A DNA stretch of 62,880 nucleotides, counting the filler, from Reclinomonas americana ATCC 50394 (taxonomy: Eukaryota): the NCBI GenBank assembly GCA_048213135.1. It is 6 parts of 4 records of this genome, joined end to end, with 100 filler letters (N's around TTAATTAATTAA, not from the genome) between each part and the next. Parts side by side here need not be neighbours in the genome. Positions count along the whole stretch, not along the records: positions 4,789 to 27,161 come from PS015686.1; 5 more parts are not named here. One strand, written 5' to 3'. Within the stretch, counting starts at the first letter, position 1; every line of letters starts with the position of its first letter. Positions 15,605 to 26,319 of this stretch are shown here, one piece after another. The notes beneath the pieces are model-generated. The model searched no databases. It saw nothing but the letters and a program-made list of their open reading frames with translations, and was not told the DNA's origin. The position numbers and the translations under genes are program-made.

Positions 15605-18600
15605 ATGTCGGTGTGTTTGTTCTGTCACTCTTCCCTCCTCCTCTGTATGTGTGTTCTTACTGTCCTTGCTTATGCACAGTTCTCAGTGAATGAGTGCGGC
15701 GCATGATTCGTCGCTGTGTGTGGTAGTTGAGGGCATGTCGGCCATGTCCACTCTCGCGGACTTGCTGCGCGAGGCCACACGCTTGCTGTGTGAGAAGAGT
15801 GGAGATGTCGCGGTGGAGATTGTGGGAGTGGAGAAGCCGTCATCGTTCAACCTGAAAAAAGCCGATGTGTTTGAGTTGGGAGACCTCGGCATCAACTCAT
15901 CCACTCACCTTGTTGTCCGTCTGACTCTTGGCGTGGCGCCGCAGTCGAGTGGAAGGAGCGGGATTGAAAGGTATGTGTCAGTGATTCATCCTCTGTGCAA
16001 AAACGTACAGCTCACTCTCATGTTACCGCACAGCAACTCGGAGCGAGTGACTCGGTTTGTTTTATTTGCCGTCGTCCTTGTCTCCCCTGGTTGCTCTTTC
16101 TGTGATGCTGACTGCATCTGTGCACGGGCACAGCATGGTCGACTCCCAGCGGATCAACATGGCCTTTGAGGTGGTGGAGGAGGCCGTGCGTCTGCGCTGT
16201 CAACGCGCACTGGCCCAGTTTAGTCGCGATCATTCCGCCTTCGACGTGCGGGCGTGGGTGCCGAGTTTCACACCTGCTGGCATGGATGCAGTGGCGGCGA
16301 AGGCGTGGCGTGAGCGACATGCTCCACTCCACCCCTCGCGAGTCAAGTTATTTGAGGAGAAGCAGCCGGTGGTGTTGGCCTGGCGTACGGCATTCGACGC
16401 CGACCCCTCGTCCGACCCTCAGTGTGACGGTCTCGACACGACGGCACTCACATCCATCATGCTATATGGTGGCTTTGTTCAGGATGACGGTCGTAAGACA
16501 CTGCTCATTGACGATGATGATGAACGGAAAGCGGTAGAGGAGCTGCACAGTGTCAGGAACAAGCTGAGACACGATGAGCTGCCGTTAACATTGGACAGTG
16601 TGCAGCAGTACCTTGGTGACGGTGGTGTCTTCCTTTCTATCCTCTGTCGACTGCAGATGACGGCGGACGTATATGTACACTTCTGTGCTCGCGTTCGTGA
16701 AGCGCGCCATCTCGACTTTAGTGTCAGCACATTCGAGCAACGACTGCATCGACTGGCTATGCGTGAGATGGCCTACTATCACGAAGAAGAGAGTGTGCGC
16801 AAGGACATGCAGATGTATGTGCCTGTGCTGTGTTCACAAGAACGTGACGTCTCGTCGCAAGACAAGATGACGGATCTGTTGACGGATGTGGATGCATTCC
16901 TCGCCGACTCCAACACCACCCACCGTGTGCTGGTGCTATTTGGCAACAGTGGAGCCGGCAAGACCACCACCATGTCGGTGTTGGCCGAGCAAGCGTGGCG
17001 ACAGTGGCATACGGGAGAAAGCCGACGTGTGCCTGTGCGTGTGCCTCTTGGTGCTCTGCGCAATGCCGATGAGCGGCTGTTGGAGGATTCATTGGAGCGA
17101 CTGTCACCCGAGTTGGGATTCAGTGAGTCAGATGTGCGACGGTTGAAAGAGGAACCACTGCTGTTGTTGCTTGACGGGTACGACGAGTTGTACCGTGGTG
17201 TGAATCTGTTTGTCAAGAACCAGCTGGATGTGTGTCGCGATATGAAGGTGATTATCACCTGCCGTGAGGATTACGCACTGACGGCATTGGGTGGAGCGGC
17301 ACAGTATCGACGGTACTTTGCACCAGTGGATGCACGCGGACAGTTGTGTATGCAGCAGTTGATGGAGCGACACATTGCACCGTTCAATAATGAGCAGATT
17401 GAGGGGTACTTTGAGCGACTTGTGCAAGTTGGTGACGATGATGATGACTGTGGAGTAGAATGGTCGACTGCTGAAGAGTACATTTATGCATTGAAGAGTG
17501 TGCATGGACTTGATGCACTGGTGTCGAATCCATTCTTGCTGGTAGTGGTGGCTCGTGTGCTGCCGCAGTTGGTTGCGAGTGGTGTGCAGCGGCCGACTCG
17601 GCGCGATGTGTTTGACCGATTCATTCGACAGTGGATTGTGAGGGAGCAGGAGAGGCAGACGCGTCTTGGTGCGGAGCGTGTGCCGAGTGAGGAGACGTGT
17701 CGCTCGTTCTGTGAGGGACTGGCACGGTTGATGCACGAGAGGAATGTTGTGCGAGTGGAATCAGAGAGGAGAGCATTCGAAGAGGACATCGCTGAGTTTG
17801 GTGGTGCACCACTCGCCTTGCGACGAGTGGAGGAGGGACCGTTTGACAAGTTCCTCGGTCACAAGAACCAGCACGTGCGAGTGTGCTGTCCGATTGTGCG
17901 ACGGTATGGGACGACGCAGTGGGGATTCGTGCATCTGTCGTTGCTGGAGCACTGTGTGGCACGGCATGTGTTTGCGTGGGAGACGTGGGATGAGGAGAGG
18001 AGATTGACGATAGAAGATGTGCAACAGCATGTGCTGGCAGTGCGACTGCTGAATGATCGACCATCGTTGGTGGAGCAGATGGCCGAGGTGGTGCGACGGT
18101 CTCCTGCATTGCAAGCGAGATTGTGGGAAGTGATTGAGATGTCAAGAGAGGTGGATGCGGATCGACTGGTGACGGCGGCGGCGAATGCAGCGACGGTGTT
18201 GTGTGTGGCACAAGTGTCGTTCAGTGGGCGAGATCTGTCCGGTGTGCGAGTGAGGGGTGCGGATTTGAGGGATGCGGTGATGCACAGGACGGTATGGAGG
18301 GGGGCGGATTTGCGAGGGGTGAATGTGTGCATGGCGTATGCGAGGGAGTCGGATTTCAGGGGAGCGGATGTGACGGGGGTGAAGTGGCCGAGCAAGCCGC
18401 TGTTGGGTCACACGAGTGGGGTGAACTCTGTCGCTGTCATTCCCGATGGTCAGCACATTGTGAGTGGCAGTTGGGACAAGACTGTACGAGTGTGGTCGGT
18501 AGTAAGCGGCGAGGAAGTGCGCCGACTTGAAGGCCACACGGAGAGCGTGTCTGCAGTGGCAGTGACACCCGATGGCCAGCACATTGTAAGTGGCGGTTGG

Positions 18601-23400: not shown

Positions 23401-26319
23401 CGTTGCCATTACCCCTGATGGTCAATTCATCGTGAGTGGGGGTACTGACGATACAGTGCGAGTGTGGTCGCTGATATGCGGAGAAGAAGTGCTACGCNNN
23501 NNNNNNNNNNNNNNNNNNNNNNNNNNNNNNNNNNNNNNNNNNNNNNNNNNNNNNNNNNNNNNNNNNNNNNNNNNNNNNNNNNNNNNNNNNNNNNNNNNNN
23601 NNNNNNNNNNNNNNNNNNNNNNNNNNNNNNNNNNNNNNNNNNNNNNNNNNNNNNNNNNNNNNNNNNNNNNNNNNNNNNNNNNNNNNNNNNNNNNNNNNNN
23701 NNNNNNNNNNNNNNNNNNNNNNNNNNNNNNNNNNNNNNNNNNNNNNNNNNNNNNNNNNNNNNNNNNNNNNNNNNNNNNNNNNNNNNNNNNNNNNNNNNNN
23801 NNNNNNNNNNNNNNNNNNNNNNNNNNNNNNNNNNNNNNNNNNNNNNNNNNNNNNNNNNNNNNNNNNNNNNNNNNNNNNNNNNNNNNNNNNNNNNNNNNNN
23901 NNNNNNNNNNNNNNNNNNNNNNNNNNNNNNNNNNNNNNNNNNNNNNNNNNNNNNNNNNNNNNNNNNNNNNNNNNNNNNNNNNNNNNNNNNNNNNNNNNNN
24001 NNNNNNNNNNNNNNNNNNNNNNNNNNNNNNNNNNNNNNNNNNNNNNNNNNNNNNNNNNNNNNNNNNNNNNNNNNNNNNNNNNNNNNNNNNNNNNNNNNNN
24101 NNNNNNNNNNNNNNNNNNNNNNNNNNNNNNNNNNNNNNNNNNNNNNNNNNNNNNNNNNNNNNNNNNNNNNNNNNNNNNNNNNNNNNNNNNNNNNNNNNNN
24201 NNNNNNNNNNNNNNNNNNNNNNNNNNNNNNNNNNNNNNNNNNNNNNNNNNNNNNNNNNNNNNNNNNNNNNNNNNNNNNNNNNNNNNNNNNNNNNNNNNNN
24301 NNNNNNNNNNNNNNNNNNNNNNNNNNNNNNNNNNNNNNNNNNNNNNNNNNNNNNNNNNNNNNNNNNNNNNNNNNNNNNNNNNNNNNNNNNNNNNTTGGAG
24401 GGGCACGAGCCGGTGGTGTCAGTTGTTGTCACTCCTGATGGCCAGTACCTTGTGAGCGGTACCTTTGACAGTTCCATTCAAGTGTGGTCGCTGGCGAGTG
24501 GAGAAGCAGTGCGACGGTTGGAGGGACATGTTGCGCCCGCCATGTCCGTTGCCGTCACGCCTGATGGCCAGCACGTTGTGAGTGGGAGTGGGGACAAGAC
24601 CATTCGCGTGTGGTCTCTGGCGAGTGGAGAAGAAGTTCAACGGATGCAGCTCGAGGAGCTCACGAGTGGTGTGCGGTCTGTCGCCGTCACTCCTGATGGT
24701 CAGCATGTTGTCAGTGGGAGTCTTGACTGTACAGTACGACTCTGGTCACTGGCGAGTGGAGGAGAAGTGCAACGGTTCACAGGACACTCAAAGATGGTGC
24801 TTTGTGTCACCGTCACTCCCAATGGTCTACATGCTGTTAGTGGAAGTTTCGACAAGACCGTGCGAGTGTGGTCATTGTCGAGTGGCGAAGAGATTCGACG
24901 ATTGGAAGGACACAATGGAGCGGTGAACTCTGTCATTGTCACCCCTGATGGTCAGCATGTTGTGAGTGGGAGTTCTGACAATACAGTGCGACTGTGGCCA
25001 GTTGCGAGTGGAGAAGAGGCGCGACGGCCGGAGGGACACACTGGATGGGTGTGGTCTGTCGCTGTCACCCCCGATGGTCAGTTCATTGTGAGTGGGGGTG
25101 GCCGCCCGGACAATACTCTGCGAATGTGGCTTTTGAGGAGCGGGGAGGAGGTGCGGCAGTTCAAGGGACATACCTGGGCTGTACGATCTGTCGCGATCAC
25201 TTCTGATAGTCGGCACATTGTCAGTGCGAGTAAGGATCAGACATTGAGAGTGTGGTCACTGGCGAGTGGAGAACAAGTGCGAAAACTGGAAGGGCACACT
25301 GATTCTGTGAACTCAATCGCTGTCACTCCTGATGGCCTGTACGCTGTGAGTGGCAGCGACGACAAAACAGTGCGTGTGTGGTGTCTGGTGAGTGGAGATG
25401 AAGTGCTGCAGCTGGTGGGACACGCCAACTCTGTGACGTCTGTCGCTCTCTCCCTCGATGGTCAGCATGTGGTGAGTGGCAGTCAGGACAAGACAGTGCG
25501 AATGTGGTCACTAGCGAGCGGTGAAACAGTGCAACGGCTGCAGGGGCACACCGACTCTGTGACTTCGGTTGCTGTCACTCCCAATTGTCAGTGCATTGTA
25601 AGTGGCAGCGATGATGACACTGTGCGAATGTGGTCGATGGCCAGTGGCGAGGAGNNNNNNNNNNNNNNNNNNNNNNNNNNNNNNNNNNNNNNNNNNNNNN
25701 NNNNNNNNNNNNNNNNNNNNNNNNNNNNNNNNNNNNNNNNNNNNNNNNNNNNNNNNNNNNNNNNNNNNNNNNNNNNNNNNNNNNNNNNNNNNNNNNNNNN
25801 NNNNNNNNNNNNNNNNNNNNNNNNNNNNNNNNNNNNNNNNNNNNNNNNNNNNNNNNNNNNNNNNNNNNNNNNNNNNNNNNNNNNNNNNNNNNNNNNNNNN
25901 NNNNNNNNNNNNNNNNNNNNNNNNNNNNNNNNNNNNTGCGCCGACTGGAGGGCCACTCGGGTGGCGTGCGGGCGGTGGCAGTGACTCTCGATGGCCAGTT
26001 CATTGTGAGTGGCGGTGGGGACGAGACTGTACGGGTGTGGTTGGTGGCAAGTGGCGAGGAGGTGCGCCGACTGGAGGGGCACTCTAATACCGTGCGTTCT
26101 CTCGCTGTCACGCCGAATGGGCAGCGCATTGTGAGTGGTAGCGCTGACGGAACAGTACGCGTGCTACCGCTGACGGGTGTGGTGGCGAGTGAAGAGAGAG
26201 TGCGACTTGGGTCGCGAGCTGATGACGAGCCCGCCGTCCATGTGCGGTCGACGAGAAACGTGCTGGAGCGCATCTGTGGTTCATTTTTGCCCGACTTTAC
26301 CGGAGCGTTGTATGAGTAA
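20463..26319 (+). CDS. NLR-like STAND protein 2: Ubl, HEPN-like, NACHT, pentapeptide, WD40 (14 repeats visible, more in two gaps)
   Basis: ATG TCG, intron 20469-20532, then FSVHVSAAHD...MHLVVRV; second intron 20850-21006. Motifs VRNELAH, GNSGAGKTT and LLLLLDGYDE. The tail VLERICGSFLPDFTGALYE closely matches that of paralog 1. Confidence 0.9.

What the first reader, a model, noticed from the sequence alone, without database searches (positions are those of the whole stretch)
15605..26319. Tandem pair of NLR-like receptors with a putative HEPN RNase effector: Ubl-HEPN-NACHT-pentapeptide-WD40
Seen: both paralogs keep D(T/V)TA(L/M)TSIM followed by an Rx4H motif upstream of an intact NACHT (RNKLRH at 16555-16572, RNELAH at 21428-21445), although the surrounding residues have diverged. 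Known: Rx4-6H is the HEPN RNase active site; D-x-T-x-L...RNxxxH fits DZIP3/Swt1-like HEPNs; HEPNs are activated by dimerisation, which STAND oligomerisation could supply. Inference: a ligand-triggered RNA-destroying immune or self/non-self system in a microbial eukaryote. I do not recognise this full domain combination from described proteins.
Basis: partly seen in the sequence, partly recalled or inferred. Interest (0 to 1): 0.85.

Follow-up and report, generated by a model that had tools for sequence, protein, structure and literature searches.

The report
Tandem NLR-like genes with probable HEPN head
Two neighbouring genes of an unidentified eukaryote encode NLR-type immune-receptor-like proteins whose front domain is probably a very divergent HEPN RNA-cutting module; this kind of fusion is already described in animals and bacteria, so it is a new variant and not a new principle.

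Summary
Two head-to-tail paralogues (about 15690-20022 and 20590-26319, + strand) each have a short first exon, one intron at the same place, a ~180-220 aa helical N-domain, an intact NACHT, pentapeptide repeats and a WD40 array.

The HEPN reading is probable but not proven. Pfam's only relevant hit is HEPN_Swt1, below its cut-off (E 0.024 and 0.011). A profile comparison with 12 bacterial Swt1-type HEPN domains gave E 1.2e-3, reached by 1 of 256 column shuffles. Protein-language-model neighbours are mostly HEPN_Swt1, HEPN_DZIP3 and DUF4559 clusters. MAFFT aligns the domain collinearly with the bacterial HEPNs, with H146 invariant.

Against it:
- 0 relatives among 1.84 billion representative proteins.
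- The unbiased AlphaFold model failed (pLDDT 44; 0 of 50 HEPN-type fold matches).
- A HEPN-like model (pLDDT 74, best Z 6.4) came only when bacterial HEPNs were in the alignment.

The Ubl claim is untested. Gene 1 carries a frameshift in its WD40 array, and the assembly is gap-rich. HEPN-NACHT fusions are in print for animals, Capsaspora and bacteria. The NACHT-pentapeptide-WD40 chassis is known from Mortierellaceae and their endosymbionts.

Verdict: a new variant of a known kind, of moderate interest.

The parts
15545..15689 (+). Gene 1 conserved leader (probable 5' UTR, with a GTATGTG...CAG stretch and an upstream ATG at 15606)
   Evidence: About 80% identical over 162 bases to the stretch before gene 2. 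A TGA stands in frame just before the ATG at 15690.
15690..15970 (+).
   Evidence: Open frame from the ATG; 70% aa identity to gene 2 over 80 codons, dN/dS 0.49. No Pfam or PDB sequence match. The fold was not tested.
15971..16133 (+). Gene 1 intron (GTATGT...CAG)
   Evidence: Read from the sequence. Same position and phase as in gene 2.
16135..16668 (+). Gene 1 N-domain, 178 aa, probable divergent Swt1-type HEPN
16435..16461 (+). DTTALTSIM, predicted start of helix 2. D101 aligns with the conserved D of bacterial Swt1-type HEPNs (LDLAALLRVL, WDTQNLLTVM)
16555..16572 (+). RNKLRH (Rx4H) at the C-terminal end of predicted helix 128-146
   Evidence: H146 is invariant and R141 at least 90% conserved in the 14-sequence alignment A2.
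16924..17271 (+). Gene 1 NACHT NTPase core (Walker A 16942-16968, Walker B 17158-17187, VIITCR 17248-17265)
   Evidence: Pfam PF05729, 35.8 bits against a cut-off of 26.7; motifs.
18214..18387 (+). Gene 1 pentapeptide repeats
   Evidence: Pfam PF00805, 28.4 bits against 20.2; coordinates.
18406..19880 (+). Gene 1 WD40 array, 126-bp units. Frame break near 19165-19187, an odd in-frame insert at 19455-19500, and a 20-N gap at 19745-19764
19881..20022 (+). Gene 1 C-terminal tail (...VLERICGSFLPDYTDALYE) and stop TAA at 20020-20022
20590..20849 (+). Gene 2 exon 1 from the first in-frame ATG (the codon matching gene 1's ATG is GTG at 20545)
20850..21006 (+). Gene 2 intron (GTGATT...GCAG)
21008..21541 (+). 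Gene 2 N-domain, probable divergent Swt1-type HEPN (DVTAMTSIM at 21308-21334, RNELAH at 21428-21445)
21797..22297 (+). Gene 2 NACHT (Walker A 21815-21841, Walker B 22028-22057)
   Evidence: Pfam 37.1 bits against 26.7; motifs.
23060..23233 (+). Gene 2 pentapeptide repeats
23252..26319 (+). Gene 2 WD40 array (N gaps at 23498-24394 and 25655-25936), conserved tail and stop TAA at 26317-26319

Best explanation
These are two tandemly duplicated eukaryotic genes for NLR-like STAND receptors. Each protein runs: a short N-terminal exon of unknown fold, a helical domain of about 180 aa, a NACHT NTPase, a short pentapeptide-repeat segment and a long WD40 propeller array with variable surface positions.

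The helical domain is most likely a very divergent member of the Swt1/DZIP3 branch of the HEPN superfamily. [quoted passage not shown]

Likely mechanism (inferred, not shown): the WD40 and pentapeptide part binds a ligand, foreign or non-self; the NACHT exchanges nucleotide and oligomerises; the N-terminal HEPN domains are brought together into the paired active site that HEPN RNases need; RNA is then cleaved without metal, giving growth arrest, cell death or destruction of invader RNA.

Shown here: the gene structure, the NACHT, pentapeptide and WD40 domains, the motif, and purifying selection on the N-domain. Inferred: the HEPN fold, RNase activity, activation by oligomerisation and the biological role.
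For: 1. Architecture. NACHT and Pentapeptide score above Pfam cut-offs in both genes, and WD40 is strong.
2. The N-domain is under purifying selection (dN/dS 0.23 over 222 codons), so it is a working protein domain.
3. With Pfam thresholds relaxed to E 10, HEPN_Swt1 is the only hit in gene 1 (E 0.024) and the best of two in gene 2 (E 0.011). Both are centred on the Rx4H motif.
4. I built a profile of 12 bacterial PF18731 domains fetched independently. hhalign of the two-sequence alignment against it scored 27.9 (E 1.2e-3). The reversed query scored 12.0, and 1 of 256 column shuffles reached the real score.
5. hmmsearch with that profile gave gene 2 10.2 bits (0 of 2000 shuffles as high) and gene 1 6.2 bits (10 of 2000). 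None of the 121 stored database proteins used as natural decoys (120 NACHT homologues and one aminopeptidase) was among the 15 best rows, which held only gene 2's domain and shuffles; gene 1's own score, 6.2 bits, lies at the foot of that list.
6. BLASTP of gene 2 against one bacterial member gave E 2e-4 over 20 residues.
7. MAFFT aligned the domain collinearly over the whole bacterial HEPN: helix 1, the W motif, LD..AL, RN..AH and the following D..L helix. H146 is invariant; R141 and W58 are at least 90% conserved.
8. ESM Atlas feature neighbours. For gene 1, 13 of 30 hits fall in the HEPN_Swt1 set and 3 in DUF4559. For gene 2 (named clusters only), 15 of 30 are HEPN_Swt1, 8 HEPN_DZIP3 and 3 DUF4559.
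9. Both AlphaFold runs give the same secondary structure, with RNKLRH ending helix 128-146 before a loop. PMC3710099 places the motif there (passage read).
10. The model made with the bacterial HEPNs in the alignment has pLDDT 74 and pTM 0.72. Its best matches among 48161 chains include 13 of 50 HEPN-type entries: Csm6 4rgp Z 6.4, 1wwp Z 5.5, AbiF 8vz6 Z 5.2, sacsin HEPN 3o10 Z 5.1, and others. Ten of the top 11 rows are HEPN-type in the second look.
11. Precedent. HEPN placed N-terminal to NACHT or other NTPases is described in animals and bacteria. Three of the bacterial PF18731 domains fetched here sit N-terminal to a DUF499 AAA+ ATPase or an SNF2 helicase.
Against: - No relative of the N-domain was found. 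There were 0 hits among 1.84 billion representatives, none by word search, none in genome or metagenome contigs, and none among 120 NACHT homologues.
- Pfam HEPN_Swt1 scores (15.4 and 16.4 bits) are well below the cut-off of 27.5. HEPN_DZIP3 was not reported even at E 10.
- hhalign probability is only 19%, and the confident part of that alignment covers 29 columns.
- BLASTP of gene 1 against the bacterial member was not significant.
- The motif alone arises in 3% of column shuffles.
- The only unbiased structure prediction failed (pLDDT 44), and its fold matches held 0 of 50 HEPN-type entries.
- The HEPN-like model depends on an alignment that already contains HEPNs. Foldseek found nothing at E <= 0.001 (best 0.9). 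All Z values (6.4 or less) lie in the range the tool calls common for helical bundles.
- The two paralogues are not independent witnesses.
- Swt1's own HEPN is listed as inactive in PMC3710099 (Table 1, read), so fold membership would not prove activity.
- Gene 1 is frameshifted as assembled.
Confidence: 0.58

Rival explanations
1. The N-domain is a lineage-specific helical domain of another kind, for example an adaptor or a membrane- or protein-targeting bundle of the sort seen at the front of many NLRs. The RNxxxH is then a coincidence, and the receptor signals by some route other than RNA cleavage.
For: - No significant homologue was found anywhere.
- All HEPN matches are below family thresholds.
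- A shared R[NDH]xxxH arises in 3% of column shuffles.
- The unbiased model gave no HEPN match (0 of 50).
- Non-HEPN helical proteins, among them designed bundles, She2p, MLKL and a resistosome CC domain, score about as well as the HEPNs against the biased model (Z 4.3-5.4).
Against: - Several different methods point to the same family and not to scattered ones.
- The similarity is collinear over four separate segments, not only the motif.
- The motif sits at the predicted end of a helix, as in known HEPNs.
- Pfam gave no hit to HeLo, Death-fold, CC or other NLR head domains.
Confidence: 0.25
2. The domain has the HEPN fold but is not an RNase trigger of cell death. It would bind RNA or nucleotides, or serve only as an oligomerisation or recruitment module, as proposed for catalytically inactive HEPNs.
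For: PMC3710099 Table 1 lists the Swt1 HEPN as inactive and describes HEPN families that have lost catalysis (passages read). The closest Pfam family here is HEPN_Swt1. No activity data exist.
Against: Both paralogues keep R, the polar N after it, and H, in the most diverged stretch of the domain (50% identity). They also keep an aspartate aligned with the family's conserved D. PMC3710099 treats HEPNs that keep the motif as predicted active RNases.
Confidence: 0.12
3. The locus is decaying: one or both genes are pseudogenes and the domain has no present function.
For: Gene 1 has a frame break of about 23 nt and an aberrant repeat in its WD40 array. Gene 2 has GTG where gene 1 has its first ATG.
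Against: - dN/dS is 0.06-0.33 in every measurable segment of exon 2 and 0.49 in exon 1.
- Long open frames, splice sites and NTPase motifs are intact in both copies.
- The break lies in a near-identical repeat array of a gap-rich draft, where assembly errors are likely.
- Gene 2 has an in-frame ATG 15 codons downstream.
Confidence: 0.05

Closest known systems
Animal HEPN-NACHT proteins (DZIP3/hRUL138-type and CXorf38-type HEPN fused to NACHT with LRR, TPR or WD40), with a lineage-specific expansion also noted in Capsaspora. Sources: PMC3710099 Table 1 and text; pearl oyster, PMC9646362.
   Same: An N-terminal HEPN with Rx4H (N after R), then NACHT, then repeats. Tandem, copy-variable gene clusters. 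The proposed RNA-degrading immune or apoptotic role is likewise only predicted there (passages read).
   Different: - No Pfam HEPN_DZIP3 hit here, even at E 10; the nearest family is HEPN_Swt1.
- The N-domain has no detectable homologue.
- The NACHT is nearest to fungal and endosymbiont types, not animal ones.
- There is a pentapeptide segment and an extra N-terminal exon.
- The host lineage is unknown.
NACHT-pentapeptide-WD40 proteins of Mortierellaceae fungi and their Mycoavidus/Glomeribacter endosymbionts. My assignment of them to the HET-D/E-like 'clade 18' of bioRxiv 10.1101/2022.07.19.500537 is an inference.
   Same: The same chassis. These are the best NACHT-region hits (E 1e-55 to 1e-34, 25-32% identity, 88-100% of the query covered), and their Pfam lists hold NACHT, Pentapeptide and WD40.
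   Different: Their N-termini are different domains (Arm-like or helical, or short). None of the 120 matched the N-domain profile. A survey of fungal NLR effector domains does not contain the word HEPN (0 occurrences in the main text of PMC9815663).
Bacterial NLR-related proteins (bNACHT, Avs) with N-terminal HEPN RNase effectors
   Same: The same logic: effector, NACHT/STAND, repeat sensor. HEPN is listed among the enzymatic N-terminal effectors, and beta-propeller and pentapeptide repeats among the sensors (bioRxiv 10.1101/2022.07.19.500537, passages read).
   Different: Here the genes are eukaryotic, with an intron and an added exon. No bacterial relative of this N-domain was found.
Pfam HEPN_Swt1 (PF18731), including bacterial members fused to DUF499 AAA+ ATPases or SNF2 helicases
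   Same: Collinear motifs (W motif, LD..AL.., RN..AH, D..L) and a position at the N-terminus before an NTPase.
   Different: Scores are below the family cut-off. There are two insertions relative to the bacterial domains. The partner NTPase is a NACHT.

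Membership tests
HEPN superfamily (as defined in PMC3710099) | Rx4-6H motif with a polar residue (N, D or H) after the R | tested here: met
   RNKLRH at 16555-16572 and RNELAH at 21428-21445. The chance of a shared R[NDH]xxxH is 3% by column shuffle.
HEPN superfamily (as defined in PMC3710099) | Motif at the end of helix 3, before the loop to helix 4 | tested here: met
   Predicted helix 128-146 ends at H146 in both AlphaFold runs. 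This is prediction only; the first run has low confidence.
HEPN superfamily (as defined in PMC3710099) | Conserved acidic residue in helix 2 near the active site | tested here: inconclusive
   D101 aligns with the D of LDLAALL / WDTQNLL in bacterial Swt1-type HEPNs. That part of the alignment has low confidence.
HEPN superfamily (as defined in PMC3710099) | Four-helix up-down bundle like solved HEPN structures | tested here: inconclusive
   The model made with HEPNs in its alignment gave 13 of 50 HEPN-type matches, best Z 6.4. The unbiased model gave 0 of 50. Foldseek's best E was 0.9.
HEPN superfamily (as defined in PMC3710099) | Metal-independent RNase activity dependent on R and H | not testable with these tools
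   Needs a bench assay.
Pfam HEPN_Swt1 (PF18731) | Score at or above the gathering cut-off of 27.5 bits | tested here: not met
   15.4 bits (E 0.024) and 16.4 bits (E 0.011).
Pfam HEPN_DZIP3 (PF18738) | Any match to the family model | tested here: not met
   Not reported at max E 10 for either paralogue; the tool's filters drop most matches above E of about 0.1. The only link is through ESM Atlas clusters that carry PF18738 in 11-38% of members.
NACHT NTPase (PF05729) | Pfam cut-off, Walker A GxxGxGK[ST], and Walker B with the D[GAS]hDE signature | tested here: met
   35.8 and 37.1 bits against 26.7; GNSGAGKTT and LLLLLDGYDE in both genes. The signature is as quoted from bioRxiv 10.1101/2022.07.19.500537.
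NLR-like tripartite STAND receptor | N-terminal effector or adaptor, central NOD, C-terminal repeat sensor in one polypeptide | tested here: met
Ubiquitin-like (beta-grasp) domain for exon 1 | Match to a Ubl family or a beta-grasp fold | tested here: inconclusive
   No Ubl family among the Pfam hits at E 10. No Ubl among the PDB sequence hits at E 10.
Fungal HET-E/NWD-type NLRs with highly similar WD40 repeats | Near-identical tandem WD40 units with variability focused on a few positions | tested here: met
   126-bp units with 84-95% matches in gene 1. Entropy is concentrated at unit positions 3-5, 7, 23-25 and 32-33. The comparison with HET-E is recalled, not tested.

The most novel reading that the evidence does not exclude
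The N-domain founds a new, so far orphan branch of the HEPN superfamily. It was joined, in a non-animal eukaryote, to a bacterial/fungal-type NACHT-pentapeptide-WD40 chassis, independently of the animal DZIP3-NACHT fusions. This would give a one-protein, ligand-triggered RNA-destroying receptor, a eukaryotic counterpart of bacterial abortive-infection HEPN-STAND proteins, with an extra N-terminal exon that may regulate or localise it.
Probability: 0.4. Interest if true: 0.6.

Novelty: new variant of a known kind. Interest (0 to 1): 0.45.

Why it matters
Fusions of HEPN with NACHT are widely predicted to be RNA-cleaving immune receptors. In the passages I read that role is only predicted for eukaryotes; I recall no biochemical demonstration.

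This pair is compact, with one intron and a clear domain order. Its head domain is small enough to express, and two natural variants differ at 37% of positions while keeping the motif. It could serve as a test case for whether NLR oligomerisation switches on a HEPN RNase.

It also shows a chassis known from Mortierellaceae and their endosymbionts in another, unidentified eukaryote with a different head domain. That bears on how NLR heads are swapped. If the HEPN reading fails, it is an ordinary lineage-specific NLR pair.

Tried and rejected
- Homologue searches for the N-domain all came back empty: word-index search, full HMMER scan of 1.84 billion representatives, genome contigs and metagenome-contig scans, PDB sequences (only a chance response-regulator hit at E 0.34), NCBIfam, and hmmsearch against 120 NACHT homologues. 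PADLOC gave one weak SspB hit at E 0.015 in one paralogue only, which I took as chance.
- AlphaFold on the two paralogues alone gave pLDDT 44. Its fold search gave no HEPN entry and no clear fold.
- Foldseek against the PDB with the better model found nothing at E <= 0.001.
- Whole-genome search: no genome is held for this window.
- Sequencing runs: none was listed, and no RNA holder was listed. Reads were therefore never laid, and neither splicing nor the gene 1 frameshift could be checked.
- Lineage: a search with an aminopeptidase exon gave one unnamed hit at 45% identity. Rfam and tRNA scans were empty. The lineage stays unknown.
- Ubl: no sequence support.
- Earlier findings of this scan for this genome or sequence: none.
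- Supplements: only a 4-kb text file of PMC3710099 is held. Its family alignments and accession lists, including the Capsaspora members, could not be seen. Neither could the bioRxiv tables of 10.1101/2022.07.19.500537. They might list closer architectures.
- Print searches for HEPN-NLR in protists: 'HEPN, NLR, protists' gave 0 papers. 'HEPN, NACHT, unicellular' gave 3, none on such a protein, judging by their titles and the starts of their abstracts in the search listing; I had earlier read only the HEPN passages of one of them.

Full report
WHAT IS THERE

The window is a gap-rich draft scaffold with 21 runs of N. Its genes are eukaryotic in type. The region holds two head-to-tail paralogues on the + strand.

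Gene 1:
- Exon 1 runs from the ATG at 15690 to 15970.
- A GTATGT...CAG intron spans 15971-16133.
- One long exon runs from 16134 to a TAA at 20020-20022.

Gene 2:
- It has the same structure, with exon 1 ending at 20849, an intron at 20850-21006 and a long exon from 21007 to a TAA at 26317-26319.
- It has GTG at 20545 where gene 1 has its ATG. The first in-frame ATG is at 20590.

Both introns interrupt the same codon in the same phase. About 160 bases of leader before the start are roughly 80% identical between the copies.

tblastn found only these two copies in the window. The neighbours are ordinary multi-exon genes: an amidase upstream on the same strand (about 11.1-15.1 kb), an M1 aminopeptidase downstream on the other strand (about 29.8-35 kb), and protein-kinase fragments at 3.4-7.3 kb. 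Nothing else immune-like is nearby.

DOMAINS THAT ARE CERTAIN

Both proteins carry a NACHT above Pfam's cut-off (35.8 and 37.1 bits against 26.7). They have Walker A GNSGAGKTT, Walker B LLLLLDGYDE with the NACHT-type D-G-h-D-E signature, and VIITCR. A 58-residue pentapeptide-repeat segment follows (28.4 and 30.6 bits against 20.2), then a WD40 array.

The WD40 units are 126 bp long. They match at 84-95% in gene 1 and 70-73% in gene 2. In gene 1 the variability is concentrated at unit positions 3-5, 7, 23-25 and 32-33. Both proteins end in the same short tail...VLERICGSFLPD(Y/F)T(D/G)ALYE.

As assembled, gene 1 has a unit about 23 nt short near 19165-19187, which shifts the frame. It also has an aberrant in-frame stretch at 19455-19500 and a 20-N gap. 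Gene 2 has N gaps of 897 and 282 bases. Whether the frameshift is real cannot be told from a draft of a near-identical repeat array.

The N-domain is the most diverged part of the proteins:

| Segment | aa identity | dS |
|---|---|---|
| N-domain (whole) | 63% | 1.15 |
| N-domain residues 126-175, around the motif | 50% | saturated |
| NACHT | 85% | 0.50 |
| Post-NACHT helical region | 88% | 0.39 |
| Pentapeptide | 98% | 0.12 |

It still evolves under constraint, with dN/dS 0.23. The falling dS along the gene suggests that the 3' parts have been homogenised between the copies.

The motif by itself is weak evidence. A shared R[NDH]xxxH arose in 592 of 20000 column shuffles of the two-sequence alignment, and a shared Rx4H in 6748 of 20000.

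IS THE N-DOMAIN A HEPN? EVIDENCE FOR

- With thresholds relaxed to E 10, Pfam reports HEPN_Swt1 as the only family for gene 1 (E 0.024, 15.4 bits) and the best of two for gene 2 (E 0.011, 16.4 bits). Both hits are at the motif.
- I fetched 12 bacterial PF18731 domains that score over the family cut-off, from 401 genomes, and aligned them. hhalign of the two paralogues against that alignment gave score 27.9, E 1.2e-3 and probability 19% over 29 columns. The reversed query scored 12.0. One of 256 column shuffles reached the real score (0 of 30, 1 of 226).
- An HMM of the 12 domains scored gene 2 at 10.2 bits (0 of 2000 residue shuffles as high) and gene 1 at 6.2 bits (10 of 2000).
- A greedy hhalign alignment, and independently MAFFT, lay the domain collinearly on the bacterial family. 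AFEVVEEAVRLRCQRAL matches helix 1. AKAW matches the D-W-W motif. LDTTALTSIM matches LDLAALLRVL and WDTQNLLTVM. ERKAVEELHSVRNKLRH matches ERSLVSELREVRNRWAH. The next helix also aligns. H146 is invariant, and R141 and W58 are at least 90% conserved. Identity to the two closest bacterial domains is 25% and 23%.
- The ESM Atlas feature search put HEPN_Swt1 clusters first among named neighbours for both paralogues: 13 of 30 hits for gene 1 and 15 of 30 for gene 2. Mollusc and cnidarian clusters carrying HEPN_DZIP3 (8 of 30 for gene 2) and DUF4559 (3 each) followed. Scores were 0.90-0.94, a range that the tool says shuffled proteins reach 4 to 10 times in 100. I recall DUF4559 as the CXorf38 HEPN family; no call shows that.
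- Both AlphaFold runs predict the same helices, and RNKLRH closes helix 128-146. PMC3710099 places the motif there (passage read).

IS THE N-DOMAIN A HEPN? EVIDENCE AGAINST

- The domain has no detectable relative. There were 0 hits at E <= 0.001 among 1.84 billion representative proteins. There were none by word search, in two contig collections, in PDB sequences, or among 120 NACHT homologues.
- All family scores are below the cut-offs. HEPN_DZIP3 was not reported.
- The only structure prediction free of foreign sequences failed (pLDDT 44). Its fold search returned 0 HEPN-type entries among 50, with a maximum Z of 4.8.
- A usable model (pLDDT 74.2, pTM 0.72) came only when the 12 bacterial HEPNs were in the alignment, so its fold is not an independent test.
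- That model gave no Foldseek match at E <= 0.001.
- In the VIA-align search of 48161 chains it gave 13 of 50 HEPN-type entries. Three are HEPN by title: 3o10, 7ae2 and 8xdj. Four (1wwp, the MtlR entries 3brj and 6kcr, and AbiF 8vz6) are HEPN by PMC3710099. The other six, including the Csm6 entries, 5yep, 1jog and 3c8g, are HEPN by my recall. The best was Csm6 4rgp_B (Z 6.4, rmsd 4.2, 114 residues aligned). Unrelated helical bundles scored nearly as well, and the tool warns that Z under about 13 is common for helical models.
- A second look at Foldseek's list put HEPN-type chains in 10 of the top 11 rows, with Z 5.5 or less.

I put the odds that the domain has the HEPN fold at about 0.7. I put the odds that it is an active, oligomerisation-triggered RNase at about 0.5-0.6.

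HOW IT PROBABLY WORKS

This part is inference. By analogy with other STAND/NLR proteins, the WD40 and pentapeptide part would hold the protein off until it binds a ligand. The NACHT would then oligomerise and bring the N-terminal domains together.

That HEPN RNases need paired domains to form the active site is established knowledge that I recall for RNase L, Ire1 and Csm6. It comes from no call here.

The result would be metal-independent RNA cleavage, and then growth arrest, death or loss of invader RNA. The variable WD40 surface positions and the tandem duplication fit a recognition function under diversification.

COMPARISON WITH WHAT IS KNOWN

HEPN heads on NACHT proteins are in print:
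- PMC3710099 lists DZIP3/hRUL138-type HEPN fused to NACHT, CARD, Death, LRR and TPR in animals, with lineage-specific expansions in Nematostella, oyster and Capsaspora. It also lists CXorf38-type HEPN fused to NACHT, and bacterial HEPN-STAND proteins (Table 1 and text).
- The pearl-oyster genome paper PMC9646362 reports more than 50 HEPN_DZIP3-NACHT proteins, and NACHT proteins with LRR, TPR or WD40 tails (passages).
- bioRxiv 10.1101/2022.07.19.500537 lists HEPN among the N-terminal RNase effectors of bacterial NACHT proteins, and beta-propellers and pentapeptide repeats among the sensors (passages).

The chassis is also known. The best matches to the NACHT region (E 1e-55 to 1e-34, 25-32% identity) are NACHT-pentapeptide-WD40 proteins of Mortierellaceae and of Mycoavidus and Glomeribacter endosymbionts. 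Their N-termini are different and did not match the N-domain profile (0 of 120).

A survey of fungal NLR effector domains does not mention HEPN (0 occurrences in the main text of PMC9815663).

Three bacterial PF18731 domains that I inspected sit N-terminal to a DUF499 AAA+ ATPase or an SNF2 helicase, as PMC3710099 describes.

So the principle is known. What is new here is this particular orphan HEPN-like head, on this chassis, with an added N-terminal exon, in a eukaryote whose lineage I could not determine.

WHAT STAYS OPEN

- The Ubl reading of exon 1 has no sequence support and was not folded.
- Expression, splicing and the gene 1 frameshift could not be checked, because no run was listed.
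- The dimer prediction was never queued.
- The family alignments in the supplements of PMC3710099, and the tables of the bioRxiv preprint, were not available to me and may contain closer architectures.

VERDICT

This is a new variant of a known kind, of moderate interest.

Noticed in passing
16135-18387 against 21008-23233: Synonymous divergence between the paralogues falls steadily along the gene: dS 1.15 in the N-domain, 0.50 in NACHT, 0.39 in the post-NACHT region and 0.12 in the pentapeptide segment. This suggests gene conversion of the 3' parts, or a head domain older than the rest.
   Followed up: partly
18406-19744 and 23252-26200: In the WD40 units of gene 1, variability is concentrated at unit positions 3-5, 7, 23-25 and 32-33, while the rest is nearly identical. 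From memory, this is like the hypervariable WD40 repeats of fungal HET-E/NWD genes. Gene 2's units are more diverged.
   Followed up: partly
19881-20022 and 26200-26319: Both proteins end, after the WD40 array, in the same short non-repeat tail, ...VLERICGSFLPD(Y/F)T(D/G)ALYE. Its function is unknown.
   Followed up: no
15545-15689 and 20400-20545: The leader before both genes is conserved. It holds an upstream ATG (15606 in gene 1) and a GTATGTG...CAG stretch that looks like a 5' UTR intron.
   Followed up: no
4689-4788, 27162-27261, 33857-33956, 54149-54248, 56648-56747: At five places there are two runs of exactly 44 N separated by 12 bases. This looks like an assembly or masking artefact and not biology.
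   Followed up: no
10000-14000 and elsewhere in the window: There is strong strand asymmetry of composition, with AT skew down to -0.5 and GC skew up to +0.35. It produces many long spurious open frames, for example three overlapping frames of 450-560 aa at 10986-12766 of which only a 78-residue stretch matches amidase.
   Followed up: no
L024, L026, L031 (bacterial loci): Bacterial Swt1-type HEPN domains sit at the N-terminus of large proteins, followed by a DUF499 AAA+ ATPase (L024) or an SNF2-family helicase (L026, L031). This is the same 'HEPN head before an NTPase' layout.
   Followed up: partly
L001-L023 (Mycoavidus MAG contigs): Mycoavidus genomes carry many paralogues (23 loci in three MAGs) of the NACHT-pentapeptide-WD40 protein also found in their Mortierellaceae hosts.
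   Followed up: no
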